Source: an uncultured Syntrophaceae bacterium
GTDB lineage: Bacteria > Desulfobacterota > Syntrophia > Syntrophales > UBA5619
Reading direction: 5' to 3'
Length of the DNA: 64,000 bases
Assembly: GCA_964637025.1 (NCBI GenBank)
Contig: CAZWTL010000003.1
Coordinates: forward strand, 4,056 to 68,055
The first letter of the stretch is position 1. Every line of letters starts with the position of its first letter. This document shows, one piece after another, positions 6,321 to 44,280 of the stretch. Under the pieces are notes generated by a model, which did not search any database, was not told where the DNA came from, and worked only from the letters and a program-made list of their open reading frames with translations. The position numbers and the translations under genes are program-made.

Positions 6321-6334
6321 CGCAAGGAGTTGCC

Positions 6335-7843: not shown

Positions 7844-7852
7844 GTTTTTCAT

Positions 7853-7895: not shown

Positions 7896-8050
7896 CAAGG
7901 AATCGGCGTGACCGACAGGCGCGATCCATGCGTCGTCAAAAGACGGGCCCTTGGCCCGGATTTTGAAGCCAACTTTTTGGAGATTTCCCTTGACAGGGCG
8001 TTTCCGCAGGGATACTGTTCATCCGTAAATTTTAATTTGTCCAGCAGGTC

Positions 8051-26796: not shown

Positions 26797-27138
26797 GTGG
26801 CCGGGCTGACCCGCGAGGAGGAAAATCAGAAGAAGGCCGTTTTCGACGCCATGTCGGCCAGGAGCCGCAGGAGGATCCTCGACAAGGGGTACGAGAACTG
26901 GGATCCTTTTTTGAAACCGAAGGATCCCATCGACATCCGGATGGCCCAGCACCGCGAATCCGCCTTGTCCCTGATGAGGAGATTCCTGCATGAGTGTCCC
27001 GCCGAAGGCGACAGCAACGCCTATGGCCAGGGGGCATGGGAGATTTGCATGGGGATCACCGTCGGCGATGACCGATGGAAAGGGGCATACGATTTTTCGT
27101 GCTGGCACCGCGATCTCGTCAAAAAGGGTGAACTATGA
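26797..27138 (+). CDS. Hypothetical protein (113 aa)
   Basis: GTG 26797 follows GGAGGG (26783-26788). The stop overlaps the next start (ATGA at 27135-27138). No motif I recognise. Confidence 0.55.
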   Translation: MAGLTREEENQKKAVFDAMSARSRRRILDKGYENWDPFLKPKDPIDIRMAQHRESALSLMRRFLHECPAEGDSNAYGQGAWEICMGITVGDDRWKGAYDFSCWHRDLVKKGEL

Positions 27139-27755
27139 ACAAAGAGGTCGCCACGGAGGCCTATATAGAGGAATTGCGGAAAGCCCTGAAGGAGAATCCC
27201 GGTTGTGCGCTGACACACTACAACCTGGGAATTGCTCTGATCACGCGGCATCAATGGGACGAGGCCATTGCAGAATTCACGGAGGCCATCGCGGAGAGTC
27301 CGCATCTGGCCGAGGCGTATATCAACCTCAGCGGGATATATTTTCAGAAAGGGGAACTGCAGAAAGGGATCGACCTCTGCGAGAAGGTCATTGGCTTCAG
27401 ATCCGATTTTGCTGTTCCCTACGGCAACATCGGATATGCCTATCTGCAAATGGGAAACGTTGAAAAAGCGATCGAGATGCTTAAGAAGGCCGTTCAGAAG
27501 GATCCCCGGTTCGTGCAGGCCCTCAGCGACCTGGGAAGCGCCTATCTGCGGCAGGGAGATATTGACGCCTGTATTACGCACTGCGAAAAAGCCATTGAAG
27601 TTGCCCCGCACTTCGCTGTTGCGCACAACAATCTGGCCGTGGCCTATCTCCAGAAAGGAGAAATCCCAAAGGCCATCGATCACTGCGACAGGGCATTGGA
27701 ATACGGATATGAGGTGCATCCCGAATTCCTGAAGGAATTGAGTGCATTCCGGTAA
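27135..27755 (+). CDS. Tetratricopeptide-repeat (TPR) protein
   Basis: About five consecutive 34-aa TPR units (recurring A..Y.NLG.AY...G....AI..Y..AL...P). Translationally coupled to the upstream ORF. Confidence 0.8.
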   Translation: MNKEVATEAYIEELRKALKENPGCALTHYNLGIALITRHQWDEAIAEFTEAIAESPHLAEAYINLSGIYFQKGELQKGIDLCEKVIGFRSDFAVPYGNIGYAYLQMGNVEKAIEMLKKAVQKDPRFVQALSDLGSAYLRQGDIDACITHCEKAIEVAPHFAVAHNNLAVAYLQKGEIPKAIDHCDRALEYGYEVHPEFLKELSAFR

Positions 27756-30414: not shown

Positions 30415-30657
30415 ATGGGTACCGAAGAGGATAAGAAACTGGTCGTCGAAACCTTGAAGTCCAAGACGTTGAAAACGAAGTTTTATCTCAAGGACTTCAA
30501 TAAGATTTTCCCGGACAAGAAACCCCGGGAGGTCAGCAAGTTGGTCAACGAAATGGTGGCGGACGGCACCCTGGAGTACTGGTCGAGCGGCAGCACGACG
30601 ATGGTCGGCCTCAAGGGCGCCGGCATCCAGCACGACGCGGAAGACGGCAAAGAGTAA
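30415..30657 (+). CDS. dsrD: DsrD
   Basis: 80-aa winged-helix-like protein with the conserved YWSSGSTTM segment, in the canonical position after dsrB. Confidence 0.9.
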   Translation: MGTEEDKKLVVETLKSKTLKTKFYLKDFNKIFPDKKPREVSKLVNEMVADGTLEYWSSGSTTMVGLKGAGIQHDAEDGKE

Positions 30658-30673: not shown

Positions 30674-32086
30674 ATGATCGTAGATCGTCCGAGGATAGTT
30701 TTCTCCGCTTTGCGTGGAAATTCGGGGAAAACCTTCTTGACCGTCGGCGTAGGCGCCTGCCTTCGCCGACGGGGAAGGAAGGTCTCCCCTTTCAAGAAGG
30801 GTCCCGATTACATCGATCCGGCCTGGCTCGAAATGGCCACGGGTGAGCCCTGTCACAATCTGGATCTGTTCCTGATGGAACGCGACGGGTTGGTTTCCTC
30901 CTTTGCCTCCCGCATTGGGCAAGCGGACGGGGCGCTGGTGGAGGGCAACCGGGGCCTCTTCGACGGCATGGACCGAGAAGGAAGTTACAGCACGGCGGAA
31001 CTGGCGAAGCTGCTGCAGGCGCCTGTCGTGCTTGTTCTGGACTGCAGCATGACGACGCGCACGGCAGCCGCGATGGTGCTCGGCTGTCAGCATTTCGATC
31101 CCCAGGTCGCCATACGCGGCGTTATCCTGAATCGGGTCGGCGGAACGCGTCACGAATCGGTGATCCGTTCCGCGATCGAGGATCACTGCGGGGTTACTGT
31201 ATTGGGGGCGGTTCCCAGAATCAGGGGGGGCGTCTTTCCCGTACGGCACATGGGTCTCGTGCCTCCCCGGGAGCACCCGGGGGCCGAAGGGGCCATCGAC
31301 GCAGCGGCCCGCATCGTGGACGGTTGCGTGGACATGGACCGGCTCTGGGAGATCGCCCGGGAAACCCCTGCTGCCTTTTTCGACGATCCGCCCCGGGTAG
31401 AAACGGAAGAGGCGCCTTGTCCATCGGCGGCGCCAAGAATAGGATATATCAGGGATTCCGCGTTCTGGTTCTACTACCCGGACAATCTGGAGGCCCTTGA
31501 AAGAACAGGGGCGGCCCTGGTGGAGTGCAGCGCCCTGAACGACCGGGAACTCCCTCCGATGGATGCCCTTTATATCGGAGGCGGCTTCCCCGAGACCCAT
31601 GCCGCGGCCCTTGCCGCAAACTCCGGGTTCAGGGAATCGCTGCGCAGGGCGATTGAGAAAGGGCTTCCGGTGTACGCGGAATGCGGAGGCTTGATGTATC
31701 TCGGGCAAGAGCTGATCGTGGCGGAGAAGACCTATCCCATGGCGGGGATCTTCCCTGTGCAATCCGTTCTGGACCGAATGCCTCATGGCCACGGGTACAC
31801 GGTCCTGGAGGTGGATGCCCCAAACCCTTATTTCAGCACCGGGGAAATGCTTCACGGTCATGAGTTTCATTACTCCCGGATCCCGGAACGGAAAGAGGGG
31901 GGGCTGAACTTTGCCTTCAATGTGAGACGGGGGCATGGCATCCAGGGGCAAAGGGACGGTCTGTGCTACAGAAATGTCCTGGCCACCTATTCCCACCTGC
32001 ACGCGGCGGGCACGCGAGGCTGGGCAAAGGCCATCTGGAAACAGGCTGTGCGACATCAGGAGGAACTTAACAGATCGGGGGGATAG
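30674..32086 (+). CDS. dsrN: Cobyrinic acid a,c-diamide synthase family amidase (DsrN, siroheme amidation)
   Basis: CobB/CbiA layout: N-terminal ATP loop RGNSGKTF, GPDYIDP, and a C-terminal glutamine-amidotransferase Cys in YAECGGLMYL. Located within the dsr locus. Confidence 0.85.
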   Translation: MIVDRPRIVFSALRGNSGKTFLTVGVGACLRRRGRKVSPFKKGPDYIDPAWLEMATGEPCHNLDLFLMERDGLVSSFASRIGQADGALVEGNRGLFDGMDREGSYSTAELAKLLQAPVVLVLDCSMTTRTAAAMVLGCQHFDPQVAIRGVILNRVGGTRHESVIRSAIEDHCGVTVLGAVPRIRGGVFPVRHMGLVPPREHPGAEGAIDAAARIVDGCVDMDRLWEIARETPAAFFDDPPRVETEEAPCPSAAPRIGYIRDSAFWFYYPDNLEALERTGAALVECSALNDRELPPMDALYIGGGFPETHAAALAANSGFRESLRRAIEKGLPVYAECGGLMYLGQELIVAEKTYPMAGIFPVQSVLDRMPHGHGYTVLEVDAPNPYFSTGEMLHGHEFHYSRIPERKEGGLNFAFNVRRGHGIQGQRDGLCYRNVLATYSHLHAAGTRGWAKAIWKQAVRHQEELNRSGG

Positions 32087-32203: not shown

Positions 32204-32524
32204 ATGCCGCAGTTAGAGATCGGAGGAACGAATTACGAGGTTGACGAGGATGGCTTCCTGCAGGAACTGGACAAATGGAGCAGGGACTTTGCGCAAGGTT
32301 ACGCGGCCATCGAGGGCATCGAAGGATCCTTGACCGAGGACCATTGGAAACTGATCGACTACATCCGGAACTACTACGCTCAGTTCGGCATTGCACCCAT
32401 GATCCGCAAGATGTGCAAAGATACGAATCTGAGCCTCAAGCAGATTTACGAACTTTTCCCCTCGGGGCCTGCCAAGGGGGCCTGCAAGCTCGCCGGCCTC
32501 TCCAAGCCCACGGGATGCGTCTGA
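32204..32524 (+). CDS. dsrC: DsrC (TusE/DsrC/DsvC family)
   Basis: 106 aa ending ...CKLAGLSKPTGCV, i.e. the diagnostic C-x10-C-V C-terminal arm. RBS GGGAGG. Confidence 0.95.
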   Translation: MPQLEIGGTNYEVDEDGFLQELDKWSRDFAQGYAAIEGIEGSLTEDHWKLIDYIRNYYAQFGIAPMIRKMCKDTNLSLKQIYELFPSGPAKGACKLAGLSKPTGCV

Positions 32525-32632: not shown

Positions 32633-32670
32633 GGGGGCGAATCCTCATTTTAAAATGAGGATTCGCCCCC
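32633..32670. terminator. Perfect 38-nt palindrome (19-bp arms) downstream of dsrC; hairpin terminator/stabiliser candidate
   Basis: GGGGGCGAATCCTCATTTT / AAAATGAGGATTCGCCCCC at 32633-32670. No downstream T-run. Confidence 0.55.
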
Positions 32671-32845
32671 ATAGGTGAGAAAACACCGTCCGCATTTTTT
32701 TCAGGTCGGTTGCAAACGCACGGCGCTTCGGTCTGCGGGGACCGCTTCAAACACATGCCGCCCGCCTCCGCCCTTTCGAAATCCCGATCCTTAATATATT
32801 GCGGGCCGGTTCTCATCACCAATGCAGGAAAGCAGGGAGTGACTT

Positions 32846-33379
32846 ATGCCTAATGAGCTCAGGGTGAATGGTGGTGCCATCCGCTTGATGGTTGGATTCA
32901 TCACCGATGTCGAGGATATGGATGGGCTGGTCTATTACGCCCGGCCGGATTTGACGTTGGGCGCCGGATTCGGTACGGCGATAGCCACCCAAGGCGGGCC
33001 CAAGGTGCAAGTGGAGCTTAAGAAGATAGGCAGCGCCGGCGTCACCGATGTGGTCGTCACGGCAGGAGGAAACCTCAAGGCCAAATACATCCTCCACGCC
33101 GTCGGACCCAGATTCCAGGAAGAGGAAAGCGAAGCAAAGCTCAGGGCCACCATGCAGAACGTGCTGCAAAAGGCGGAGGATCATAAACTCCGGAAAATCA
33201 TCCTGCCGGCGATGGGCGCGGGATTCTACGGAATTCCCCTGGACGTCAGCGCCCGGGTCACATTGGGAGTGGCCAGGGATTTCCTGGAAAAATCGGTGGA
33301 ACTCAGGGAGACGGTCTTCTGTCTCCGGGACTCGCGGGAGTTCAAGGTCTTCCAGGAACATCTGCAGAGGATGCAATGA
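32846..33379 (+). CDS. Macro-domain (ADP-ribose/O-acetyl-ADP-ribose binding or hydrolysing) protein
   Basis: The pattern ...GAGFGTAIATQGG...VTAGGNLKAKYILHAVGPRF...ILPAMGAGFYGIP follows the macro-domain layout (GxG loop, HxVGP, second glycine loop). Confidence 0.65.
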   Translation: MPNELRVNGGAIRLMVGFITDVEDMDGLVYYARPDLTLGAGFGTAIATQGGPKVQVELKKIGSAGVTDVVVTAGGNLKAKYILHAVGPRFQEEESEAKLRATMQNVLQKAEDHKLRKIILPAMGAGFYGIPLDVSARVTLGVARDFLEKSVELRETVFCLRDSREFKVFQEHLQRMQ

Positions 33380-33477: not shown

Positions 33478-34170
33478 ATGAGCGAAACCCTTCGCTTCGT
33501 TTCCGATGACTTGCAGCTGATGGCCCTGAGTTTTATGGCCATCGTCTATATCATTCGAATTCGCTGGCTCTTGAAGTTCAAGGCCTCCCGGGATCGGCAG
33601 GCGCCCTCGGAGCGCAATGAAACGTCCGCCTTCAAGGGAATCGTCTATTCCTGGGCGAACATCGCGATGCCCTGGTCCATGGAAAGCACACGGCGGATGT
33701 TTCCCTTCTACCTTCAATTCGTGGTCTTCCATCTGGCCGTGGCCGCCAACATCGCAATGTCTTTCGTCATCCCGTACGCACCGGGCCTGATGAAGCCCAT
33801 GATCGTGGTCCGACTGCTTCAGGCCCTGTTTGCGGCTGCCGTCGTGATCGGCTGCTACCGGATGTATCGCCGCCTCAGCAACCCGGCCATGCGCCTGATC
33901 AGCACGCCGGACGACCTGTTTTCACTGGGGCTGCTGACGGTCTGGTCGTTCGCCTCCATCTTCGCGGCGCCGAACCGCCCCGATCTGGGCGAAGGGCCAT
34001 TGCTGGTCTATTTCATCATGACCGCTTTCTTTCTGGTCTATGTGCCATTCAGCAAGATATCCCATTACCTGTATTATCCTTTTACCCGATTCTACTTCGG
34101 GAAAACCCTGGGCTACCGAGGCGTCTATCCGGTTAAACACGCGACACAGCCGAAGCCGACCCATACTTAA
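33478..34170 (+). CDS. DsrM/NarI-like integral membrane protein (paralogue 3, short form)
   Basis: 230 aa with about 5 TM segments. The C-terminal motif VPFSKISHYLYYPF is shared with DsrM (IPMSKLMHMAGVF) and with 37808-38749 (IPLTHMSHMFMKYF). ATG 33478 follows CAGGAGGA. Confidence 0.65.
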   Translation: MSETLRFVSDDLQLMALSFMAIVYIIRIRWLLKFKASRDRQAPSERNETSAFKGIVYSWANIAMPWSMESTRRMFPFYLQFVVFHLAVAANIAMSFVIPYAPGLMKPMIVVRLLQALFAAAVVIGCYRMYRRLSNPAMRLISTPDDLFSLGLLTVWSFASIFAAPNRPDLGEGPLLVYFIMTAFFLVYVPFSKISHYLYYPFTRFYFGKTLGYRGVYPVKHATQPKPTHT

Positions 34171-34195
34171 ATTCACATCCATACAGGAGCGATGA

Positions 34196-35947
34196 ATGTT
34201 CCCAAACGCGAGATCGCATAAAGCCGAAAAAGTCGTCGAGAAAATGGGCAGGAAACTGAGCCGCCAATTGGTGGGTTCGCTGGTCAGCTGCGTTCATTGC
34301 GGCATGTGCACGGAATCCTGCCACTATGTCCTGGCCAATCCGGACGATCCCACCTATGCCCCCGCCTACAAGGCGGATCAGATCCGGAAGATCTTCAAAC
34401 GCAACTTCGACTGGACCGGTAAGGTCTTTCCGTGGTGGGTTCACGCCCAGGATATCCGCACCGATGAGGAGCTGGAAAAACTCAAGGACATCGTTTTCGG
34501 GAAATGCACGAACTGCAGGAGATGTTCGATCAATTGTCCCATGGGCGTGGACTTCGCCCTCCTGAACCGGATGGCCAGAGGATTGCTTGTCTCCGTGGGC
34601 GTCATGCCTGAGGGCGTGGCCGTGGTCAGCAAGGACCAGTGGGAAGTGGGAAACCAGATGGGGGTTCTCCCGCAGGAATACATTGAAACCCTCGAATGGC
34701 TTTCGGACGAACTGGAAGAGGAGTTCAACGACCCCGCGGCCCGGATACCCATCGACAAGATGGACGCAGACATCGTTTACGCGATCAATCCCCGGGAGGT
34801 GAAATACGATCCCCGGACGATTTCCGACGCGGCCCGCATCTTCTACCTGGCGGGAGAAAACTGGACCATGCCCAGCGAGGGATGGGACATGACCAATTTC
34901 GGTCTCTTCTCCGGGGATGACGAGCTCGGAGGGGCGGTCGCCTTGAGGGTTTACGACAAGGTCCGCGAGCTCCGGGGCAAGACGCTGGTTCTTTCCGAGT
35001 GCGGCCATGGGTACCGGTCGACCCGGTGCGAAGGACCCAACTGGTCGGGGAAAGAGGTGCCCTTCGTGATCGAAAGTTCGGTCCTGACCATGCTCCGCTA
35101 CATCCGGGAGGGACGGATCCAGGTGGACAGGAACAAGAACACGGAATCCTGCACCTTTCACGATTCCTGCAACAATGCCCGCAGTTGCGGCTTCTTTGAG
35201 GAACCCCGGGAGCTTCTGGACCTGGTGGTCACCGATTTCCGCGAGATGTACCCGAACCGTGCGGAGAATTACTGCTGTACGGGCGGCGGCGGGGCGATGT
35301 CGATGTCGGAATATACGCCCCAGCGACTGAAATCGGCCGTGATCAAGGCTGAGCAGCTGAAGGCCACAGGGGCCAAGGCGGTCGTCACTTCGTGCCACAA
35401 CTGCGTGGACGGCTTGACCGATGTGATCCGGCACTACAAACTGGGCATGAAGGTGACCCAGCTCGTCAACCTGACGGCCAACGCCCTGGTGATCCCGGAA
35501 AAGAAGGCCGTCATCCCGGTGACCGTGCCGATGGCTGCAGCCGCGCTGCCGCTGCAGGGCTTCAAGATCCTGGTCGTGGACGATGAGCCGGATATCCTGA
35601 CCTTCATTTCGGTGGTTCTGGAGGACCAGGGCGCCACGGTGCTCCAGGCGGCCGACGGAGATCAGGCGTTGACATTGACAATGGCGGAGAAACCTGATCT
35701 GATTACCCTTGACCTGTCCATGCCGGGCAAAAACGGAGGCATGGTGTTTGAAGAAATCCGGAACAATCCGGAGATCGCTTCCACCAAGGTCTGCATCATT
35801 ACCGGGAAACCGGAGCTGAGACGGCTCATCTACGAGCGTCCGGTTCCTCCTCCCGAAGGGTATCTGGACAAGCCGATCGACGAAGAGGCTCTGCTGACCA
35901 ATATCCGGAAGATCCTGGAGACGAATCCTCCCGTCGGACACGCGTAA
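34196..35947 (+). CDS. DsrK/HdrD-like Fe-S CCG-domain oxidoreductase fused to a C-terminal response-regulator receiver domain
   Basis: Residues about 1-440 carry CVHCGMCTESCHY, CTNCRRCSINCPMG and the CCG elements FHDSCNNARSCG, NYCCTGGGG, TSCHNCVDG. Residues about 456-583 (nt 35561-35947) form a receiver: ILVVDDEPD, phospho-acceptor D in LITLDLSMP (GAC 35711-35713), CIITG, DKP. Confidence 0.85.
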   Translation: MFPNARSHKAEKVVEKMGRKLSRQLVGSLVSCVHCGMCTESCHYVLANPDDPTYAPAYKADQIRKIFKRNFDWTGKVFPWWVHAQDIRTDEELEKLKDIVFGKCTNCRRCSINCPMGVDFALLNRMARGLLVSVGVMPEGVAVVSKDQWEVGNQMGVLPQEYIETLEWLSDELEEEFNDPAARIPIDKMDADIVYAINPREVKYDPRTISDAARIFYLAGENWTMPSEGWDMTNFGLFSGDDELGGAVALRVYDKVRELRGKTLVLSECGHGYRSTRCEGPNWSGKEVPFVIESSVLTMLRYIREGRIQVDRNKNTESCTFHDSCNNARSCGFFEEPRELLDLVVTDFREMYPNRAENYCCTGGGGAMSMSEYTPQRLKSAVIKAEQLKATGAKAVVTSCHNCVDGLTDVIRHYKLGMKVTQLVNLTANALVIPEKKAVIPVTVPMAAAALPLQGFKILVVDDEPDILTFISVVLEDQGATVLQAADGDQALTLTMAEKPDLITLDLSMPGKNGGMVFEEIRNNPEIASTKVCIITGKPELRRLIYERPVPPPEGYLDKPIDEEALLTNIRKILETNPPVGHA

Positions 35948-35965
35948 CCAAGGGAAAACGATTTT

Positions 35966-37399
35966 ATGACCAGCAACCCATACAAAGAATATTTCGAATC
36001 GATGCCGGCCTACCTGACGATCATGGACCGAAACCTCAGGATCGTGGAGGCCAACAGGCGATTTCGCCGGGACTTCGGCGAGTTCGAGGGACGCTACTGC
36101 TACCAGATGAACCAGCACCGGTCCGAACGATGCGAACAGTGTCCCGCGGAGCGGACCTTCCGCGACGGATTGCGCCACGGGATCGAAGAGACCGTCGTCA
36201 ATAAGCAGGGGAACGAGATCATCCTGCTGATCAACACGATAGCCGTACCGGATGAGTCCGGAGAGATCACCCGCGTCATGAGGATGGCGACGGACATCAC
36301 GGAGCTTAAACTCCTCCAGAAGCAGATCCGGGACAGCCGGGAACGTTACCGCAAGCTTTTTGACGAGGTTCCCTGCTACATCTCCATCCAGGATGCCGAT
36401 CTGCGCATCGTCGATGCGAACCGACGGCTCCGCGAGGATTTCGGAGCCTCCCCCGGAGAGCGATGCCACCAGGTTTACATGCACCGCCCCGAGGCCTGCG
36501 TTCCCTGCATCGTGAGAGAAACCTTCAAGGACGGACAGGTTCATCAGTCGGAGGAGGTGATGACCTCCCCCAAGGGGGATCAGGTCAATGTTCTGGTCTA
36601 CACGGCCCCGGTTCGCAACGAAGCCGGCCAGATCAACAATGTCATCGAAATCAGCACCGACATCACCCAGATCCGACAACTCCAGTCCAAACTGACCTCC
36701 CTGGGCCTCATCATCAGCTCGATATCCCACGGCATCAAGGGGCTTCTCACCAGCCTGGACGGGGGCGTTTATCTCGTGAACACCGGCCTCGCCAAGAATG
36801 ACCGGAAGCGTTTCGAACAGGGCTGGAAAATGGTCGAACGCAACATCACCCGGATCCGGAGAATGGTTCTGGACCTCCTCTATTACGCCAAGGACCGGGA
36901 GCCGGACCTCGAAACCATCCCTGCGCGCGCCGTGGCGGACGAGGTGTGCGAGGTCGTGCGCCTCAAGGCAGCGGAACTGGGCATCGGCTTCAGTTGCGAC
37001 GTGGACCGCAATATCGGGGATATCGACGCGGACCTCAAGGCCGTTCGATCCCTGCTGGTCAACCTTGTCGAAAACGCCATGGATGCCTGCCGGGTGGATA
37101 CGAGGAAAAAGGACCATCTGGTGCGCATCAAATTGCGGGGCTACCCGGAGTACATCGAATATGAGGTGGAGGACAACGGCATCGGCATGGACCAGGAGAC
37201 CCGAGAGCGGGCCTTCAGCCTCTTTTTCTCTTCGAAAAAGGGAAACGGTACGGGGCTGGGGCTTTTCATCTCCAACAAGATCGCCCAGGCCCATGGGGGG
37301 GAAATCAAGATCGAGTCCGAATGCAACCAGGGAACCCGCATGATCGTCAAACTTCCGCGCAAGCCGCCGATGCGAGGGATTGAAGCGCCGAAAACCTGA
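35966..37399 (+). CDS. Cytoplasmic sensor histidine kinase with two PAS domains
   Basis: No TM segment. Two PAS repeats, each with a C-x10-C-x2-C motif. H-box ISSISHGIKGLL, N-box LVNLVENAMDA, G1 DNGIGM, G2 GTGLGLF. Confidence 0.9.
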   Translation: MTSNPYKEYFESMPAYLTIMDRNLRIVEANRRFRRDFGEFEGRYCYQMNQHRSERCEQCPAERTFRDGLRHGIEETVVNKQGNEIILLINTIAVPDESGEITRVMRMATDITELKLLQKQIRDSRERYRKLFDEVPCYISIQDADLRIVDANRRLREDFGASPGERCHQVYMHRPEACVPCIVRETFKDGQVHQSEEVMTSPKGDQVNVLVYTAPVRNEAGQINNVIEISTDITQIRQLQSKLTSLGLIISSISHGIKGLLTSLDGGVYLVNTGLAKNDRKRFEQGWKMVERNITRIRRMVLDLLYYAKDREPDLETIPARAVADEVCEVVRLKAAELGIGFSCDVDRNIGDIDADLKAVRSLLVNLVENAMDACRVDTRKKDHLVRIKLRGYPEYIEYEVEDNGIGMDQETRERAFSLFFSSKKGNGTGLGLFISNKIAQAHGGEIKIESECNQGTRMIVKLPRKPPMRGIEAPKT

Positions 37400-37410: not shown

Positions 37411-37797
37411 ATGATGGCCGACCAGAAACGGATTTTGATTGTCGATGACGAGGAGGATATCCGCACCTACCTTTCGACGCTGCTCGAAGACGAGGGATTT
37501 AAGACCGTTACAGCGAAGGACGGGGCGGAGGCGGTGAAGGCGCTCCAGGGAGAGGCGCCGGATCTGATCACCCTGGATGTTTCGATGCCCGAGAAGTCCG
37601 GGGTCAAATTTTACCGCGAGATCAAGACGGACGAACGCTGGAAACGGATCCCGATCGTCATCGTCACCGGGGTCTCCGAGGATTTCAAGAATTTCATCTC
37701 CTCTCGTCATCAGATACCGGCGCCGGAGGGATTCGTTTCGAAACCGATCTCTCCGGATGAAATACTGAACCTGGTCCGTACGCTGACCAAAGCCTAA
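37411..37797 (+). CDS. Stand-alone response-regulator receiver (CheY-like, no output domain)
   Basis: ILIVDDEED, LITLDVSMP, VIVTG, SKP. 128 aa with no DNA-binding or other domain. Confidence 0.9.
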   Translation: MMADQKRILIVDDEEDIRTYLSTLLEDEGFKTVTAKDGAEAVKALQGEAPDLITLDVSMPEKSGVKFYREIKTDERWKRIPIVIVTGVSEDFKNFISSRHQIPAPEGFVSKPISPDEILNLVRTLTKA

Positions 37798-37807
37798 GGA
37801 AGCGCTC

Positions 37808-38749
37808 ATGGGATTCTATGCCTTGTCTTATCTGTGTGTTCTGGTGTTCGTCCTGACCGTCGCCTGCCGGGTCTACCGGCAGTGGTCCTTCCCCGTCCAT
37901 GTCCGGTGGGAGATCTATCCGGTCCAGCACGAAACGACCGATAAACTGGCCCACGGCGGCTCCTACATGGAAGAGTTGAACTGGTGGGAAAAGAAGCACG
38001 GCAGTTCCCTCTGGAATGAGGTGAAATACATGGTGCCGGAGATCTTGCTCATCCGGGGGCTCTGGAAAGACAACCGGAGCCTGTGGCGGGTCTCCTTCCC
38101 CTTCCATTTCGGGCTGTACCTGATGATCGGCCTCTTCGCTTTGATGGTGATCCAGTCCCTGCTCGTCCTGTGGGGACCGGCATCGGCGGGGATCGGTACG
38201 ATCCAGTCCGGGTTGAACGGCCTGATCGTGTTCGTGGCCTGGGTGGGCCTGGTCCTGGGGGTGATGGGCGGCGTGGGGATGCTTTGCCGCCGGATTGCCG
38301 ATCCGGAACTGCGGGAATATTCCTCTTTCGTGGACTACTTCAACATCGCCTTCATCCTGCTCTTCTTCCTGTCCGCGTTTCTGACGACCCTGTTTGCCGA
38401 TCCGCTACTGGAAGGGGCGAAGGCCTATGTCTTCGGTCTGCTGACCGGAGGAGGGTCGCTGAAGGGCTATGTCCCCGGGCAAACCTTCTGCGGCGGGGCG
38501 GCGATCGTTCTGGGCTCGCTCCTGGTCGCCTACATCCCCTTGACCCATATGTCGCACATGTTCATGAAGTATTTCTTTTATCACAAGATCAAATGGGACG
38601 ATGCCCCGAACCTCAGAGGCGGATCCCTCGAGGCCTCCATTCGGGAAAATCTTGCACTCAAGCCGACCTGGAATGCGAAGCACGTCGAAGCGGACGGACG
38701 GAAGTCCTGGCTCGACATCGCGACCTCTGAACCCAAGGAGATCAAATGA
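37808..38749 (+). CDS. DsrM/NarI-like cytochrome b-type membrane protein (paralogue 2)
   Basis: 313 aa, polytopic, with the NarI-like C-terminal motif IPLTHMSHMFMKYF. The stop overlaps the next start (ATGA 38746-38749). Confidence 0.75.
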   Translation: MGFYALSYLCVLVFVLTVACRVYRQWSFPVHVRWEIYPVQHETTDKLAHGGSYMEELNWWEKKHGSSLWNEVKYMVPEILLIRGLWKDNRSLWRVSFPFHFGLYLMIGLFALMVIQSLLVLWGPASAGIGTIQSGLNGLIVFVAWVGLVLGVMGGVGMLCRRIADPELREYSSFVDYFNIAFILLFFLSAFLTTLFADPLLEGAKAYVFGLLTGGGSLKGYVPGQTFCGGAAIVLGSLLVAYIPLTHMSHMFMKYFFYHKIKWDDAPNLRGGSLEASIRENLALKPTWNAKHVEADGRKSWLDIATSEPKEIK

Positions 38750-40359
38750 AAAAGATCACGAAGCCATCGGATTTGGCCAAGCCTTCCGAATGCCTGTGCC
38801 ACATCGAGCCGGACGAGCTTACGCCGCTGCCCCCTCCCTATGAGGATTTCAATCAGAAAACGATCACCCCCCTGAAACCGGAAAGGGTCCAAAACATCGA
38901 GACCTCGCTGGATGACACCGTCGCCATCGGCATCCCCAAGCCCGCCAGCAAGGAGGAAGAAGAGGAGCTGATCCGCCGGTTTCTATCGGGGCTCCGGAAG
39001 CTTTTCGAAAAGGAAAACAACTGGACCTTCCTGCAGCCGCTGATGCTCTCCATGGAGTACTGCGCCAAATGCCAGACCTGCTCCGACGCCTGCCCGGCCT
39101 ACGAAATGAGCGGCGGCAAGGACATCTACCGGCCCATGTTCCGCGCCGAGGTCCTGCGCCGGATCTACAACAAATACCTCAAACCGGGCGGCAAGATCAC
39201 CTCCAAGCTGACCGGCGACATCGATCTGAACTGGAAGACGATCGCGCGTCTGGCCGAGCTCTCCTACCGGTGCACCCTATGCCGGCGCTGCGCCTCGGTC
39301 TGCCCGATCGGCGTGGACAACGGTCTCATCAACCACGAGATCCGCAAGCTCTTCTCCCAGGAGATGGGGATCGCCCCCAAGGAGCTCCACGAGAAGGGGA
39401 CCTCGCAGCAGCTCCGCGTGGGTTCCTCCACCGGGATGAACCCGCTGGCGGCCAAGGACAGCGTGGACTTCATCGAGGAGGAGATGGAGGAGATCACGGG
39501 ATACAAGGTCAAGATCCCCTGGGACGTGGAGGGGGCGGACATCCTGCTGCTCCACAACGCGGGCGAAATCATCGCCTGGCCGGAAAACGTCGGGGCCTTT
39601 GCGATCATCTTTCAGGCCGCGGGGCTTTCCTGGACCATGGCCTCGGAGGCGGTCGGATATGATGCGGTCAACTACGGCCTCTGGTACGACGATGTCCAGT
39701 TTTCCCGTATCGCCGTGAAGCATGCGGATATCGCCCGGAGGCTGAAGGTCAAGAAGATCGTGATGGGCGAGTGCGGCCATGCCCACAAGGCCCTGACGGT
39801 TATTGCCGACCGGCTGCTCACGGGGGATCTCAATATCCCGAGGGAATCGGCCATGGTGACGCTGGAGGAGATCGTCATGAGCGGCAAGCTGCAATTCGAT
39901 CCCATGCGCAACAACTTCCCCGTCACCCTGCACGATCCCTGCAATGTCGTGCGCGCCATGGGGATCGTCGAACCCCAGCGGCGGATCCTCAGAAAGATCG
40001 CCCCGCGGTTCCGGGAGATGACTCCCCACGGGGTGGACAACTACTGCTGCGGCGGCGGCTCGGGCTTCGCGATCATGTCAGGGTACAACTTCGAGGAATG
40101 GCGCACCCTGGTCAGCAGCCGAAAAAAATTCCTCCAGATCCTCGATGCCTTCAAGGATGAGCCGCAGGAGATTCCGAAATATGTCTGCGCCCCCTGCTCC
40201 AACTGCAAGGGCTCGATCCGGGACATCTTGAACTACTATCAGGCGGAGGACCGCAGCCGCCTCTATTACGGAGGGCTGGTCGAATTGATCGTCAACGCCA
40301 TGGCGGGGATGAAAAAGCCGATGATCCAGTTCGGCGACGAACCTTCGTGGAAAGCATGA
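38746..40359 (+). CDS. DsrK/HdrD-like Fe-S CCG-domain oxidoreductase (paralogue 2)
   Basis: CAKCQTCSDACPAY, CTLCRRCASVCPIG, LHDPCNVVRAMG, NYCCGGGSG, APCSNCKGS. Confidence 0.85.
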   Translation: MKKITKPSDLAKPSECLCHIEPDELTPLPPPYEDFNQKTITPLKPERVQNIETSLDDTVAIGIPKPASKEEEEELIRRFLSGLRKLFEKENNWTFLQPLMLSMEYCAKCQTCSDACPAYEMSGGKDIYRPMFRAEVLRRIYNKYLKPGGKITSKLTGDIDLNWKTIARLAELSYRCTLCRRCASVCPIGVDNGLINHEIRKLFSQEMGIAPKELHEKGTSQQLRVGSSTGMNPLAAKDSVDFIEEEMEEITGYKVKIPWDVEGADILLLHNAGEIIAWPENVGAFAIIFQAAGLSWTMASEAVGYDAVNYGLWYDDVQFSRIAVKHADIARRLKVKKIVMGECGHAHKALTVIADRLLTGDLNIPRESAMVTLEEIVMSGKLQFDPMRNNFPVTLHDPCNVVRAMGIVEPQRRILRKIAPRFREMTPHGVDNYCCGGGSGFAIMSGYNFEEWRTLVSSRKKFLQILDAFKDEPQEIPKYVCAPCSNCKGSIRDILNYYQAEDRSRLYYGGLVELIVNAMAGMKKPMIQFGDEPSWKA

Positions 40360-40470: not shown

Positions 40471-41460
40471 ATGAATCTGCTGAAATCGATCGTAGCTGTC
40501 CTGATTCTGACCCTTGTGGCCTTGGGATTCGCATCCAGCAGCGCCCTCGCCCATCTGCTGACCGTATACATCCCTTATGCGGCCTTTGCGGTCTTCGTCG
40601 TTGGGTTTGTCTATCGCATGGTTCAGTGGGGAAAGTCCCCGGTCCCCTTCCGGATACCCAGCACCTGCGGCCAGGAAAAGTCCCTCTCCTGGATCAAGAC
40701 CAATCCTCTGGACAACCCCTCATGTTTCTGGGGCGTGATCGGAAGGATGGCCCTGGAGGTCCTCCTGTTCCGCTCGCTCTTCCGGAACACGAAAGCGGGG
40801 ATCGTACAGCAGCGGCCCGTGTACGACAGCGCCAAATGGCTCTGGCTTTTCGGCCTGCTCTTCCACTGGTCGCTCCTGATCGTGGTGGTCAGGCACCTGC
40901 GCTTCTTCATCGAGCCGGTGGCCGGCTGCATCAACAGGCTCTCCGCAATCGACGGATTCTTTGAGATCGGAATCCCAACCCTCTATATGAGCGATGCCGC
41001 GATCCTGGCGGGCGTGTCGTTTCTGTTCCTCCGCAGGGTGTTCGGACCGAGGATCCGTTACATTTCCCTGTTTTCCGATTACTTCGCCCTGCTTCTGATC
41101 ATGGGCGTTGTGGGAACGGGTCTGTTGACGCGGCACTTCTTCCCGGCTGACCTTCTCCAGGTCAAGAATCTGGCGCTGGGATGGGTCACCTTCTCACCCG
41201 CCGCGCCGAAGGAGGTCGGAACGCTTTTCTACATGCATCTCTTCTTCGTCTTCACCTTGATGGTGTTCATTCCGATGAGCAAGCTGATGCACATGGCGGG
41301 GGTGTTCCTGAGCCCGACGCGGAACCTGGCCAATGACAACCGCATGAATCGGCACGTCAATCCCTGGAACGCGCCGGTGAAGGTCCACACCTATGAGGAA
41401 TACGAGGACGAGTTCCGGGAGAAGATGAAGCTCGCGGGACTGCCAGTGGATAAGGAGTGA
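40471..41460 (+). CDS. dsrM: DsrM, membrane cytochrome b subunit of the DsrMKJOP complex
   Basis: 329-aa NarI-like polytopic protein directly followed by dsrK, dsrJ, dsrO and dsrP. Confidence 0.9.
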   Translation: MNLLKSIVAVLILTLVALGFASSSALAHLLTVYIPYAAFAVFVVGFVYRMVQWGKSPVPFRIPSTCGQEKSLSWIKTNPLDNPSCFWGVIGRMALEVLLFRSLFRNTKAGIVQQRPVYDSAKWLWLFGLLFHWSLLIVVVRHLRFFIEPVAGCINRLSAIDGFFEIGIPTLYMSDAAILAGVSFLFLRRVFGPRIRYISLFSDYFALLLIMGVVGTGLLTRHFFPADLLQVKNLALGWVTFSPAAPKEVGTLFYMHLFFVFTLMVFIPMSKLMHMAGVFLSPTRNLANDNRMNRHVNPWNAPVKVHTYEEYEDEFREKMKLAGLPVDKE

Positions 41461-41462
41461 CG

Positions 41463-43085
41463 ATGTCCTTTGCGAAGATTCCCAAACCCGATGAACTGAT
41501 CGCGGTCCGTTACGAACCGCCGAAGACGCCCTGGATGGATACCCCCGTGGATTTCCGTCCGGGAACCTGGAGCTATCCGGGCAACGCCAAAAGCCTGACC
41601 GCGCTGGACCTCCCGAATCCGAGATCCTGGCTGCCCACCGACGGGGACTGGAAGCTGCCCGAAAACTGGCAGGAGATCATCCTGGAGGGGATGCGGGAGC
41701 GCCTGGAAAAATACCGTTCCTTCAGGCTCTTCATGGATCTCTGCGTGCGGTGCGGCGCCTGTGCGGACAAGTGCCACTTCTACATCGGCTCCGGGGATCC
41801 TAAAAACATGCCGGTCGTCCGGGCCGAACTGCTGCGATCGGTCTACCGCCGCTACTTCACGAAGTCGGGGAAACTCTTCGGCCGGCTGGCCGGCGCCCGC
41901 GACCTGACCGTTGATGTCCTCAAGGAGTGGTTCTACTACTTCTACCAATGCACGGAATGCCGACGCTGCTCCGTCTTCTGCCCCTACGGGATCGACCAGG
42001 CGGAAATCACGATGATTGGCCGGGAGCTCCTGAACCTCGTGGGCTGCAACATCAATTGGGTCATCGAGCCGGCGGCCAACTGTTTCCGCACGGGAAACCA
42101 CCTCGGGATCCAGCCGGGCGGGGTGAAGGACATGCTCGAATTCCTGGCGGACGATCTGGAGGAGCGCACCGGCGTGCGCGTCGACGTCCCGCTCAACAAA
42201 AAAGGGGCCGATATCCTTTTCGTGGTCCCCTCCGGCGACTATTTCGCCGATCCCGGGACATACACCTGCATGGGCTACCTGGCCCTGCTGCATGAAATCG
42301 GCCTGAACTACACCTGGAGCACCTACGCCTCCGAAGGGGGAAATTTCGGACTCTTCACCTCCCACGAGATGATCAAACGCCTCAACGCCAAGATCTACGC
42401 CGAAGCCAGGCGGCTGGGGGTCAAGTGGATTCTCGGCGGCGAGTGCGGGCACATGTGGCGGGTCATGCATCAGTACATGGACACCCTCAACGGCCCCGCC
42501 GATTTCCTCGAGGTGCCGGTTTCTCCGATCACCGGGACGCGGTTCGAAAACGCCCGGTCGACGAAAATGGTCCACATCAGCGAGTTCACGGCCGATCTGA
42601 TCCGGCACGGCAAGCTGAATCTGGACCCGTCCCGCAACGACCATCTGAAAGTTACGTTCCACGACTCCTGCAACCCCTCCCGCGCGATGGGGCTTTTCGA
42701 GGAGCCGCGGTTCATCATCAACAACGTCTGCAACCATTTCCACGAAATGGCCGAAGACACCATCCGGGAGAATACCTTCTGCTGCGGCGGCGGCGCCGGT
42801 CTCGGGAACGACGAGAACCTGGAGATGCGGCTGCGGGGCGGCATGCCGCGGGCCATGGCCGTCAAGGCGGTCAGGGAAAAACACGGGGTGAACCGCCTGA
42901 CCTGCATGTGCGCGATCGACCGGGCGGTCCTGACGACGCTGATGGAATACTGGGTGCCGGAGGTATTGGTCACCGGCGTGCATGAACTCGTGGCCAATGC
43001 CCTGATCATGAAGGGGGAAAAAGAAAGAACGACCGACCTGCGCGGCGAGCCTTTGGAAGGAAAGACAGTCGATGAAACTCTATAA
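41463..43085 (+). CDS. dsrK: DsrK, cytoplasmic HdrD-like catalytic subunit of DsrMKJOP
   Basis: CVRCGACADKCHFY, CTECRRCSVFCPYG, FHDSCNPSRAMG, FCCGGGAG. ATG 41463 lies 5 nt after AAGGAG; GTG 41457 is an alternative start. Confidence 0.9.
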   Translation: MSFAKIPKPDELIAVRYEPPKTPWMDTPVDFRPGTWSYPGNAKSLTALDLPNPRSWLPTDGDWKLPENWQEIILEGMRERLEKYRSFRLFMDLCVRCGACADKCHFYIGSGDPKNMPVVRAELLRSVYRRYFTKSGKLFGRLAGARDLTVDVLKEWFYYFYQCTECRRCSVFCPYGIDQAEITMIGRELLNLVGCNINWVIEPAANCFRTGNHLGIQPGGVKDMLEFLADDLEERTGVRVDVPLNKKGADILFVVPSGDYFADPGTYTCMGYLALLHEIGLNYTWSTYASEGGNFGLFTSHEMIKRLNAKIYAEARRLGVKWILGGECGHMWRVMHQYMDTLNGPADFLEVPVSPITGTRFENARSTKMVHISEFTADLIRHGKLNLDPSRNDHLKVTFHDSCNPSRAMGLFEEPRFIINNVCNHFHEMAEDTIRENTFCCGGGAGLGNDENLEMRLRGGMPRAMAVKAVREKHGVNRLTCMCAIDRAVLTTLMEYWVPEVLVTGVHELVANALIMKGEKERTTDLRGEPLEGKTVDETL

Positions 43086-44273: not shown

Positions 44274-44280
44274 GGATGCC

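What the first reader, a model, noticed from the sequence alone, without database searches (positions are those of the whole stretch)
34196..35947. DsrK/HdrD-like CCG Fe-S oxidoreductase fused to a response-regulator receiver domain
Seen: a single 583-aa ORF has a complete HdrD-like catalytic part (two 4Fe-4S motifs and both CCG-type Cys clusters). A Pro/Ala-rich linker (IPEKKAVIPVTVPMAAAALPLQG) connects it to a canonical receiver domain (DD pair, phospho-acceptor Asp at nt 35711-35713, T/K residues). The partner membrane subunit lies directly upstream, and a PAS histidine kinase plus a free receiver lie directly downstream, all between dsrC and dsrMKJOP. Established: receiver domains normally control an attached output domain by phosphorylation-dependent dimerisation or occlusion, and CCG domains carry the noncubane Fe-S cluster that reduces disulfides in Hdr/DsrK. 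Inference: this would be an electron-transfer enzyme whose activity or complex formation is switched by phosphorylation. That amounts to post-translational control of quinol-to-DsrC (or other disulfide) electron flow. Conversely, it could be a redox input into a phosphorelay. I do not know of a characterised example.
Basis: partly seen in the sequence, partly recalled or inferred. Interest (0 to 1): 0.75.

Follow-up and report, generated by a model that had tools for sequence, protein, structure and literature searches.

The report
Receiver-fused DsrK-like respiratory iron-sulfur subunit
A cytoplasmic iron-sulfur enzyme subunit of the type that finishes sulfite respiration carries a built-in two-component phosphorylation switch. 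This fusion, always next to its own membrane partner and kinase, is conserved in hundreds of uncultured bacterial species and has never been studied.

Summary
The 583-aa ORF at 34196..35947 is real and is not an assembly artefact. The identical protein occurs on six independently assembled contigs. Full-length homologues with the same architecture occur in at least 80 genomes from about ten phyla; the scan confirmed 458 relatives but showed only the best 80.

The N-terminal part is DsrK/TmcB/HmcF-like, not HdrD-like. It has two 4Fe-4S motifs, one complete CCG motif and the catalytic SECGH cysteine. A flexible linker joins it to a receiver domain whose phospho-switch residues are all conserved: D462, D463, D506, T536, Y556 and K559.

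The invariant gene unit is membrane subunit, CCG::REC, then histidine kinase. In this clade it also includes a Macro-domain gene, a free receiver and a DsrM2K2 paralogue. The true dsrMKJOP starts only at 40471.

The nearest unfused relatives are encoded right after a genuine dsrC, and one relative has a DsrC-like domain at the position of the receiver.

Best reading (about 0.5): a quinol:DsrC-(tri)sulfide reductase module whose activity or assembly is switched by the neighbouring Cys-rich PAS kinase. The main rival is a redox-sensing input or phosphate sink.

I found no paper describing the fusion. It is a new variant of known kinds. Interest 0.7.

The parts
32204..32524 (+). dsrC. It is the probable substrate protein and ends in ...GACKLAGLSKPTGCV, with both conserved cysteines.
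   Evidence: Pfam DsrC E 1e-35. Translation. dsrC directly precedes Macro-mb-CCG::REC in L008, L019, L040, L051, L069 and L081.
32846..33379 (+). Macro-domain protein, the first gene of the conserved cassette.
   Evidence: Pfam Macro E 7e-25. Detected by tblastn at >=60% coverage in 71 of the 80 related loci, median 46% identity in the L021-L085 loci. PDB relatives are PARP14, macroH2A and MacroD macrodomains.
33478..34170 (+). Membrane partner of about 230 aa. I read five hydrophobic stretches by eye as possible transmembrane helices (no predictor run). It is TmcC/HmcE/NarI-like. The longer ORF starts at 33391, but conservation and gene calls in other assemblies begin at M30.
   Evidence: NCBIfam TmcC E 5e-12 and HmcE E 1e-11. 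The motif VPFSKISHYLYYPF is invariant, and only two His are invariant (H114, H225).
34196..35491 (+). DsrK/TmcB/HmcF-like catalytic part of the fusion (aa 1-432). Its features are 4Fe-4S motifs at nt 34289-34321 and 34505-34537, the SECGH cysteine at 34994-35008 and the CCG motif at 35168-35404.
   Evidence: Pfam. NCBIfam HmcF 337, TmcB 310 and DsrK 240 bits, all below cut-off. Invariant Cys. The motif definition is from PMC10861901. Best structural match is EtfD, 9ojn.
35492..35560 (+). Pro/Ala-rich flexible linker (aa 433-455).
   Evidence: Mean column identity 0.35 over aa 441-456. pLDDT below 50 at 437-448.
35561..35947 (+). Receiver domain (aa 456-583). The phospho-acceptor D506 is encoded at nt 35711-35713.
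   Evidence: Pfam Response_reg 70 bits. D462, D463, D506, T536 and K559 are conserved; Y556 lies in the b5 segment (555-560), which is 0.92 conserved. Foldseek matches DivK, RR468, CheY and Spo0F at rmsd 1.4-2.4. Helix a4 is also 0.92 conserved.
35966..37399 (+). Cytoplasmic PAS-PAS histidine kinase with phospho-acceptor H255 in SISHGIKG. PAS2 has invariant C137, C167, H173, C178 and C181.
   Evidence: Pfam PAS_4 and HATPase_c. Conservation. It sits directly downstream of the fusion in nearly all loci, including the divergent subfamily.
37411..37797 (+). Free single-domain receiver, a paralogue of the fused receiver (40% identity).
   Evidence: Pfam E 8e-25. NCBIfam DVU0259 family 111 bits, below the cut-off of 160. 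It follows the kinase in 53 of 70 loci and sits elsewhere in the locus in 8 more, in most of them directly after DsrK2.
37808..40359 (+). DsrM2-DsrK2 paralogue pair, a NarI-like membrane protein plus a single-CCG protein. It is not the canonical DsrMK.
   Evidence: NCBIfam DsrM 21 bits (cut-off 300) and DsrK 343 bits (cut-off 400). It is linked to the cassette in several phyla.
40471..45432 (+). Canonical dsrMKJOP.
   Evidence: NCBIfam DsrM 481, DsrK 736, DsrJ 171, DsrO 304 and DsrP 467 bits, all above cut-off. A terminator-like site lies at 45435-45454.

Best explanation
The membrane protein (33478..34170) and the CCG::REC protein form a third DsrMK-type module in this operon. It is a membrane-anchored quinol-linked reductase of a protein-bound di- or trisulfide, most probably on DsrC. 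The adjacent cytoplasmic kinase senses a redox, oxygen or metal-related signal through its Cys-rich PAS domains and phosphorylates D506 of the tethered receiver. The phosphorylated receiver then uses its highly conserved a4-b5 face to change how the module works. It could do so by docking on or releasing the catalytic domain, or by dimerising two modules. The result would be post-translational gating of electron flow between the quinone pool and DsrC. The free receiver probably plays the same role in trans for the neighbouring DsrM2K2 paralogue, or competes for phosphate.

Shown: the domain architecture, the residue conservation and the gene linkage.
Inferred: the substrate, phosphotransfer from this kinase, and the effect of phosphorylation.
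For: - Intact DsrK-type catalytic set: two 4Fe-4S motifs, one CCG motif and the SECGH cysteine. This matches the definition in PMC10861901.
- The receiver active-site residues D462, D463, D506, T536 and K559 are conserved across phyla, and Y556 lies in a b5 segment that is 0.92 conserved.
- The order membrane gene, CCG::REC, kinase is kept in about 80 loci from many phyla. It is also kept in the 50-57%-identical subfamily that lacks the Macro gene, the free receiver and dsr genes.
- About 9 loci have no free receiver, so the fused receiver is the kinase's constant local partner.
- The core cassette has no canonical DNA-binding response regulator. The upstream regulators are sigma54, MerR or Rrf2 types without a canonical receiver.
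- Fused-receiver a4 and b5 are 0.92 conserved, against 0.51 and 0.62 in the free receiver.
- The whole protein shows 72-77% identity across phyla, where DsrA and DsrB show 55-58%.
- Substrate inference: the nearest unfused clade is encoded as dsrC, membrane gene, CCG gene, with a genuine DsrC C-terminus. One relative carries a DsrC-like domain at the position of the receiver and is followed by another dsrC. In the window, dsrC lies just upstream.
- At least 32 of 80 loci have dsr genes within 8 kb.
Against: - There is no biochemical evidence of any kind.
- The AlphaFold2 model gives two confident domains on a disordered tether (pTM 0.73) and no usable information on domain contact.
- The divergent subfamily sits in non-sulfur contexts (L090, L094, L095), so DsrC need not be the substrate for the whole family.
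- The membrane partner has only two invariant His, so it may not be a di-haem quinol oxidase like DsrM.
- Some loci do encode a possible transcriptional branch nearby: an OmpR-type regulator in L091, and an HTH protein with an atypical receiver in about 10 loci.
- A C-terminal receiver is the less common arrangement for regulated effectors.
Confidence: 0.5

Rival explanations
1. Redox-sensing input or phosphate sink. The membrane/CCG module reports the redox state of the quinone pool or of DsrC. Its state determines how readily the tethered receiver takes phosphate from the kinase, or feeds back on the kinase as DivK does. The real output then runs through the free receiver, acting on DsrM2K2 or on unknown targets, or through a distal regulator.
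For: - The receiver is C-terminal, as in hybrid kinases and CheV.
- Both receivers are closest to the DivK-like DVU0259 family and to DivK structures.
- A second, free receiver paralogue is usually present and competes for the same kinase.
- The kinase H-box SISHGIKG lacks the E/DxxT/N phosphatase motif (plus my own knowledge), so a sink would be useful.
- Rrf2 or other redox-type regulators are often adjacent.
Against: - The kinase has its own conserved Cys-rich PAS sensor domains.
- Triad-only loci (L092, L094, L095) contain no other receiver or output, so a pure input would have nothing local to control.
- The full catalytic set, including the SECGH cysteine, is invariant, which is more than a sensor would need.
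- No HPt domain is present to support a phosphorelay.
Confidence: 0.27
2. Scaffold or localisation role. The receiver mainly tethers the soluble kinase, or the free receiver, to the membrane complex or drives constitutive dimerisation. Phosphorylation has little effect on catalysis.
For: - The a4-b5 face is highly conserved, consistent with a permanent protein contact.
- The kinase is cytoplasmic with no membrane segment of its own.
Against: Every residue needed for phosphoryl chemistry and for the T/Y switch is conserved across phyla. Pseudo-receivers that act only as scaffolds usually lose these residues.
Confidence: 0.1
3. Same switchable enzyme but a different substrate. The module would reduce or oxidise another disulfide, persulfide or small thiol rather than DsrC, for example in organosulfur or stress metabolism.
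For: - Divergent family members lie outside dsr islands, next to Rrf2 regulators and once next to a cbb3 oxidase and DsrE.
- The protein scores below the DsrK, TmcB and HmcF cut-offs.
Against: - The window's clade is embedded in dsr clusters, with dsrC upstream.
- The sister clade is linked to a genuine DsrC, and one relative is fused to a DsrC-like domain that lacks the C-terminal cysteines.
Confidence: 0.12
4. Assembly or frameshift artefact that joined two genes.
For: None found.
Against: - The identical 583-aa protein is on six contigs; five loci from different sequencing runs were fetched.
- More than 230 homologue clusters and 80 species genomes have the same uninterrupted architecture.
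Confidence: 0.01

Closest known systems
DsrMK module of DsrMKJOP (menaquinol:DsrC-trisulfide oxidoreductase; Barbosa et al. 2024, PMC10861901)
   Same: A NarI-like membrane protein plus a cytoplasmic Fe-S protein with two 4Fe-4S motifs, a single CCG motif and the (T/G)ECGH cysteine. It lies in a dsr cluster next to dsrC.
   Different: It scores 240 bits on the DsrK model (cut-off 400), and the real DsrK is encoded 5.5 kb downstream. It has no JOP partners. The last Cys of the CCG motif is kept (CxxC), whereas this organism's DsrK has CxxD. It carries a receiver domain, which DsrK does not.
TmcBC of TmcABCD and HmcEF of HmcABCDEF (Desulfovibrio transmembrane redox complexes)
   Same: These are the best NCBIfam matches for both subunits: HmcF 337 and TmcB 310 bits, and TmcC and HmcE at E about 1e-11. 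They share the single-CCG plus ECGH design.
   Different: All scores are far below the equivalog cut-offs (735-750 and 240-275). No cytochrome c or periplasmic subunit genes are in the cassette. No receiver is fused in the 457- and 430-position HmcF and TmcB family profiles, which align only to the N-terminal part (aa 11-436 and 21-426).
HdrED heterodisulfide reductase of methanogens
   Same: The same superfamily and the same logic of a membrane cytochrome b plus a CCG Fe-S subunit.
   Different: HdrD has two complete CCG motifs and two noncubane clusters (PMC10861901). This protein has one.
Mycobacterium smegmatis EtfD (PDB 9ojn)
   Same: It is the best structural match of the N-terminal part (Foldseek E 5e-16, TMq 0.55 over 463 columns) and the only non-receiver PDB hit by sequence.
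   Different: EtfD is one large polypeptide (742 residues in the Foldseek entry, 1042 in the sequence table). It is only 18% identical and has no receiver. From my own knowledge, not tested here, EtfD carries its own membrane domain and accepts electrons from ETF.
Response regulators with non-DNA-binding outputs or C-terminal receivers (CheB, PleD, PhyR, CheV, PorX)
   Same: A canonical receiver covalently tethered to an effector, with the output acting at protein level. PhyR and CheV show that a C-terminal receiver can control an N-terminal partner domain. This comparison rests on my own knowledge.
   Different: None of these has a respiratory Fe-S or CCG catalytic subunit as the attached domain. 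I found no paper describing such a regulator.
dsrM2/dsrK2 'DsrMK paralogs' noted in acidobacterial MAGs (Hausmann et al. 2018, PMC6018796)
   Same: Extra DsrMK-like pairs in the dsr gene clusters of the same uncultured lineages. That paper's figure also marks four syntenic genes of unknown function.
   Different: The paper and its supplements mention no receiver, kinase or two-component system. I could not establish which of the two extra pairs in this window corresponds to their M2K2.

Membership tests
DsrK (NCBIfam NF045796; PMC10861901) | Two canonical CxxCxxCxxxC 4Fe-4S motifs | tested here: met
   C32/35/38/42 and C104/107/110/114 are invariant in 81 orthologues.
DsrK (NCBIfam NF045796; PMC10861901) | Single CCG motif CXnCCGXnCX2C for one noncubane cluster | tested here: met
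   There is one Pfam CCG hit at 319-403. The motif residues are C325, C360-C361 and C400xxC403, written CCT rather than CCG.
DsrK (NCBIfam NF045796; PMC10861901) | Conserved cysteine in the (T/G)ECGH motif | tested here: met
   S267-E-C269-G-H-G272 is invariant in 109 homologues, with Ser in place of Thr or Gly.
DsrK (NCBIfam NF045796; PMC10861901) | Score at or above the curated equivalog cut-off (400 bits) | tested here: not met
   It scores 240 bits. The gene at 41457..43085 scores 736 bits and is the DsrK of this genome.
DsrK (NCBIfam NF045796; PMC10861901) | Menaquinol:DsrC-trisulfide oxidoreductase activity with DsrM | not testable with these tools
   Only genomic linkage to dsrC and the DsrC-linked or DsrC-fused sister clade are available.
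TmcB / HmcF (NF045724 / NF045711) | Equivalog score cut-off (735 / 750 bits) | tested here: not met
   310 and 337 bits.
TmcB / HmcF (NF045724 / NF045711) | Encoded with periplasmic cytochrome c subunits (TmcA, HmcA) in one operon | tested here: not met
   The neighbours are Macro, the membrane protein, the kinase and the receiver. There is no cytochrome c gene in the cassette.
HdrD (methanogen HdrED) | Two complete CCG motifs | tested here: not met
   Only one is complete. The first is reduced to C269 (plus C278 in this clade).
Response regulator receiver domain (PF00072) | Profile match above the gathering score | tested here: met
   70.2 bits against 30.2, covering model positions 1-110 of 111.
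Response regulator receiver domain (PF00072) | Acidic pocket, phospho-acceptor Asp, and the Thr/Ser, aromatic and Lys switch residues | tested here: met
   D462, D463, D506, T536, Y556 and K559 are all present. D463, D506 and K559 are invariant, D462 is at least 90% conserved and T536 is 89% conserved. Y556 lies in a b5 segment that is 0.92 conserved.
Response regulator receiver domain (PF00072) | Phosphorylation by a cognate histidine kinase | not testable with these tools
   The only evidence is invariant adjacency of a kinase gene.
DVU0259-family single-domain receivers (NF045717) | Score cut-off of 160 bits | tested here: not met
   The fused receiver scores 77 bits and the free receiver 111 bits. 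This is the best NCBIfam match for each, but below cut-off.
NarI/DsrM-type di-haem cytochrome b (membrane partner) | Four conserved His ligands for two haems b | tested here: inconclusive
   Only H114 and H225 are invariant in 75 orthologues. The PFSKxxH motif is shared with DsrM and DsrM2. Identity is low, so the alignment is uncertain.

The most novel reading that the evidence does not exclude
One Cys-rich PAS kinase with two receivers acts as a post-translational gearbox. One receiver is fused to a DsrK-like subunit, and the other travels with the DsrM2K2 paralogue. Together they would decide within seconds which of three parallel DsrMK-type modules carries electrons between the quinone pool and DsrC. 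This would let facultative, often oxygen-exposed, uncultured sulfite and sulfate reducers switch dissimilatory sulfur respiration on, off or into reverse without new gene expression.
Probability: 0.2. Interest if true: 0.85.

Novelty: new variant of a known kind. Interest (0 to 1): 0.7.

Why it matters
Dissimilatory sulfite and sulfate reduction is a major biogeochemical process. How electron flow into its last step, DsrC-trisulfide reduction, is controlled is essentially unknown.

Known redox-responsive two-component systems act on transcription. A receiver domain built into a respiratory Fe-S catalytic subunit would be direct phosphorylation control of an electron-transfer enzyme, and to my knowledge no example of that has been characterised.

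The family is widespread, with about 458 species-level genomes in Syntrophales, Acidobacteriota, Zixibacteria, Ignavibacteria/Kapabacteria, Calditrichota, Gemmatimonadota, Planctomycetota and others. These are exactly the recently discovered uncultured dsr-carrying lineages whose physiology (reductive, oxidative or facultative) is debated. Across these lineages the fusion is more conserved than DsrAB itself.

It gives a concrete, testable handle: one Asp residue, one kinase and an existing enzyme assay. It also adds a new output domain to the catalogue of response regulators.

Tried and rejected
- **Frameshift or assembly artefact.** Rejected.
- **HdrD-type protein with two CCG clusters.** Rejected. 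There is one CCG plus the ECGH cysteine, as in DsrK.
- **The pair after the free receiver is dsrMK of dsrMKJOP.** Rejected. It is a paralogue, and the true complex starts at 40471.
- **Sigma54 promoter upstream of the cassette.** I searched because sigma54 activators sit upstream in other phyla. Matches to TGGCAC-N5-TTGCW were not above chance and none lies in the dsrC-Macro gap.
- **Literature on the fusion.** Seven full-text searches and five papers read (Hausmann 2018, Diao 2023, Thiel 2019, Rajeev 2011, Barbosa 2024). None mentions a receiver-fused DsrK/TmcB-like protein. Pereira et al. 2011 is not held.
- **Inter-domain docking from AlphaFold2.** The tool returns no PAE or coordinates. 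A pTM of 0.73 with a disordered linker says nothing about contact.
- **Solved relatives of the Cys-rich PAS region.** None by sequence.
- **The 1053-aa antisense ORF at 34133..37294.** It has no Pfam hit and is explained by the rarity of TTA, CTA and TCA codons (0.28%), so it is a codon-usage artefact.
- **A DNA-binding response regulator inside the cassette.** Not found in the window or as a recurrent cluster. There is only an HTH protein with a weak, atypical receiver in about 10 loci and one OmpR-type gene in L091.
- **Covariation or mirror-tree analysis of kinase against the two receivers.** Considered and not run. With about 70 phylogenetically structured sequences it would not be decisive.
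Full report
**1. The observation**

The window has one uninterrupted ORF at 34196..35947 on the + strand, 583 aa.

- Pfam finds a 4Fe-4S dicluster domain (Fer4_8, aa 30-118), one CCG domain (aa 319-403) and a receiver domain (Response_reg, aa 458-570, E 2e-19, 70 bits against a gathering score of 30).

The fusion is not an artefact.

- The identical protein was assembled on six contigs; five loci from different sequencing runs were fetched.
- The 120 best homologue clusters are all full length or nearly so and have the same Pfam architecture.
- A second search seeded with a 56%-identical relative returned another 120, nearly all fused.
- A scan of one genome per GTDB species confirmed 458 stretches that encode a relative. 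The best 80 are 72-92% identical over the whole length. They come from Syntrophales, Acidobacteriota, Zixibacteria, Ignavibacteria/Kapabacteria, Calditrichota, Gemmatimonadota, Planctomycetota and others.
- Every record is a metagenome-assembled genome. Automatic names are 'response regulator' or 'Fe-S oxidoreductase/CheY-like'.

**2. Corrections to the anatomy**

First, the catalytic part is DsrK-like, not HdrD-like.

- Only one complete CCG motif is present: C325, C360-C361 and C400xxC403.
- The position of the other motif is reduced to the cysteine of an invariant S-E-C269-G-H-G motif.
- Barbosa et al. 2024 (PMC10861901) describe exactly this combination as the signature of DsrK, HmcF and TmcB: two ordinary 4Fe-4S clusters, a single noncubane cluster and a (T/G)ECGH cysteine. 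HdrD and HdrB instead have two CCG motifs.
- NCBIfam ranks the N-terminal part HmcF (337 bits) > TmcB (310) > DsrK (240). All are well below the equivalog cut-offs of 750, 735 and 400. It is therefore a separate subfamily.

Second, the two genes directly after the free receiver (37808..38749 and 38746..40359) are a DsrMK paralogue: DsrM 21 bits and DsrK 343 bits, both below cut-off. The canonical dsrMKJOP is at 40471..45432, with all five subunits above cut-off. The operon therefore holds three tandem modules of 'NarI-like membrane protein plus single-CCG protein'.

Third, a Macro-domain gene (32846..33379) lies between dsrC and the membrane subunit and belongs to the conserved unit.

**3. Conservation and context**

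I compared the window's proteins with the 80 loci by tblastn.

- The order Macro, membrane protein, CCG::REC, PAS kinase, free receiver recurs across phyla.
- In the more distant loci (L021-L085) the median identities are:

| Gene | Median identity |
|---|---|
| CCG::REC | 74% (range 72-77) |
| Membrane protein | 57% |
| Kinase | 55% |
| Free receiver | 52% |
| Macro | 46% |
| DsrA / DsrB / DsrC | 57 / 56 / 58% |

. The loci were chosen by similarity to the fusion, so only the within-locus comparison is meaningful. DsrK proper is similarly well conserved (69-74% in L040 and L051).
- Within the fusion, mean column identity is 0.79 for the catalytic part, 0.69 for the receiver and 0.35 for the linker.
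- At least 32 of the 80 loci have dsr genes within 8 kb. dsrC directly precedes the cassette in several.
- The free receiver follows the kinase in 53 of 70 loci with enough sequence. In eight more it lies elsewhere in the locus, in most of them directly after DsrK2. L021 and L025 have both. About nine loci have none.
- A more divergent fused subfamily (50-57% identity) keeps only membrane gene, CCG::REC and kinase, often with an Rrf2 regulator. It lies outside dsr contexts (L090, L092, L094, L095).
- The invariant core is therefore the triad membrane partner, CCG::REC, kinase.

Intergenic gaps in the window are 10-25 bp from Macro to DsrK2. No + strand terminator-like site lies in between. A strong hairpin follows dsrC and a terminator-like site follows dsrP.

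**4. Structure**

AlphaFold2 was run on an alignment of 109 fused homologues.

- It gives mean pLDDT 91 and pTM 0.73, with residues 437-448 below 50. That means two confident domains on a flexible tether.
- Foldseek's best match for the N-terminal part is M. smegmatis EtfD (9ojn, E 5e-16).
- The receiver superposes on DivK, RR468, CheY and Spo0F at 1.4-2.4 A.
- Domain contact could not be assessed.

**5. What the relatives say about the substrate**

An exhaustive search of 1.84 billion cluster representatives with the catalytic part found only 219 representatives at E <= 1e-30.

- After the fused family, the closest full-length relative is P0129 (44% identity). It carries a DsrC-like domain at the C-terminal position where our protein has the receiver. 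It is encoded between a NarI-like gene and a separate dsrC.
- Next comes an unfused clade of about 450 aa (P0130, 41% identity) that is widespread in Zixibacteria, Aminicenantes and others.
- In all three genomes examined for that clade, the gene order is dsrC, membrane protein, CCG protein. In the two translated here the DsrC has the genuine C-terminal ...GACKLAGLPKPDGCV.
- The window has the same order with the Macro gene inserted.

This gene-neighbourhood and fusion evidence points to DsrC as the substrate. It is an inference, and it is weaker for the divergent subfamily.

**6. How it most likely works**

Established background:
- Receiver domains switch conformation on Asp phosphorylation and signal mainly through the a4-b5-a5 face.
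- DsrMK passes electrons from menaquinol through haem b and Fe-S clusters to the noncubane cluster, which reduces the DsrC trisulfide.

Findings here:
- The catalytic set and the phospho-switch set are both intact and conserved.
- The kinase gene is inseparable from the fusion.
- The core cassette contains no canonical DNA-binding response regulator. The recurrent upstream regulators are LMWPc-PAS-sigma54 activators, MerR-like proteins or Rrf2 proteins.
- The a4 helix and b5 strand of the fused receiver are 0.92 conserved, against 0.51 and 0.62 in the free receiver from the same loci. This argues for a conserved protein contact on the output face.
- The kinase has conserved cysteines in both PAS domains: C45, C56 and C59 in PAS1, and C137, C167, H173, C178 and C181 in PAS2. 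This suggests a metal or Fe-S redox sensor.

I therefore favour, at about 0.5, a DsrMK-type quinol:DsrC-(tri)sulfide reductase whose catalysis or assembly is gated by phosphorylation of D506 by the adjacent kinase. The free receiver would do the same in trans for DsrM2K2, or compete for phosphate.

The main rival, at about 0.27, is that the redox module is the input and the receiver a redox-dependent phosphate sink or DivK-like modulator of the kinase. Triad-only loci, which have no other local output, weigh against that rival but do not exclude it. Scaffold-only and other-substrate readings remain possible.

**7. Comparison with what is known**

- It works like, and is homologous to, DsrMK, TmcBC and HmcEF.
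- It fails the curated cut-offs for each, has its own membrane partner, and sits beside the genuine DsrK. I therefore file it as a distinct DsrK-superfamily subfamily.
- It is a bona fide receiver-domain protein by every sequence criterion.
- Hausmann et al. 2018 noted 'dsrM2/dsrK2' paralogues and four syntenic genes of unknown function in acidobacterial dsr clusters. They did not mention receivers or kinases.
- None of seven full-text searches found a description of the fusion. The library lacks many subscription papers, so this is absence of evidence within a limited corpus.

**8. Verdict**

- The finding is real, widely conserved and uncharacterised.
It remains untested, and two anatomical details were wrong.
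- Novelty: a new variant of known kinds, namely a response regulator with a respiratory Fe-S output, or equivalently a DsrK paralogue with a built-in switch.
- Interest: 0.7.

Noticed in passing
window 33478..35947, 37808..40359, 40471..43085: There are three tandem modules of 'NarI-like membrane protein plus single-CCG Fe-S protein' in one operon. Only the third is the canonical DsrMK. This organism's DsrK has the CxxD variant of the last CCG cysteine, while the two paralogues keep CxxC.
   Followed up: partly
window 32634..32671: A perfect long hairpin (GGGGGCGAATCCTCATTTT/AAAATGAGGATTCGCCCCC) sits in the 321-bp gap between dsrC and the Macro gene. It may be a terminator or attenuator separating dsrABDNC from the cassette. 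The simple scan did not report it because no T-run follows directly.
   Followed up: no
window 35966..37399: Both PAS domains of the kinase carry conserved cysteines: C45/C56/C59 in PAS1, and C137/C167/H173/C178/C181 in PAS2, all invariant in 75 orthologues. This could be a metal or Fe-S site. No solved structure is related by sequence. The H-box SISH255GIKG lacks the usual E/DxxT/N phosphatase motif.
   Followed up: partly
window 32846..33379; L088 9642..10589: A Macro (ADP-ribose binding or hydrolysing) gene is the conserved first gene of the cassette. One locus of the unfused sister clade has an ADP-ribosylglycohydrolase gene two genes downstream of the CCG gene. A link between ADP-ribosylation and these DsrC-associated modules is unexplained.
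   Followed up: no
L086, L087, L088, L089 (about 6030..8350 in three of them): The sister clade forms a conserved trio of genuine dsrC, a 210-217 aa membrane protein and a 450-aa CCG protein. A convergent cysteine desulfurase gene lies next to it. It occurs in Zixibacteria, Aminicenantes and others, away from dsrAB.
   Followed up: partly
L093 2019..3668 (protein P0129): This is a DsrK-like protein with a C-terminal DsrC-like domain that lacks the two C-terminal cysteines. It is followed by a separate dsrC gene. The fusion sits at the same position as the receiver in the window's protein.
   Followed up: partly
L022, L023, L026, L031, L034, L035, L070, L072, L084 and others, directly upstream of the Macro gene: A recurrent regulator with the architecture LMW phosphatase-like domain, Cys-rich PAS, sigma54 AAA+ and HTH_8 precedes the cassette in 15 loci. 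MerR-like proteins with Cys-rich tails precede DsrM2K2. Rrf2 regulators accompany other loci and the divergent subfamily.
   Followed up: partly
L029, L039, L061, L062, L071, L074, L078, L079, L081; L091 7411..8226: An HTH_17/MerR protein has a Cys-rich middle and a C-terminal domain with weak receiver homology. It keeps the acceptor Asp but lacks the DD pair, Thr and Lys. It could be an atypical transcriptional branch of the system.
   Followed up: partly
L021, L025, L045, L046, L059, L060, L085, L091: The free receiver gene often sits directly after DsrK2 (M2-K2-REC). L021 and L025 have two free receivers, one after the kinase and one after DsrK2. This suggests DsrK2 has a receiver partner in trans, mirroring the fusion.
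   Followed up: partly
window 34133..37294 (- strand): A 1053-aa antisense ORF is codon-aligned with both the fusion and the kinase genes. It has no Pfam hit. It is explained by the rarity of TTA, CTA and TCA codons (0.28% in the operon, so P of no stop is about 0.05). Similar antisense ORFs overlie dsrN and dsrK.
   Followed up: yes
window 26310..26777 and 27135..27755: A DUF6955 protein and a TPR-repeat protein are encoded just upstream of dsrA. dsrD (30415..30657) and dsrN (30674..32086) lie between dsrB and dsrC.
   Followed up: no
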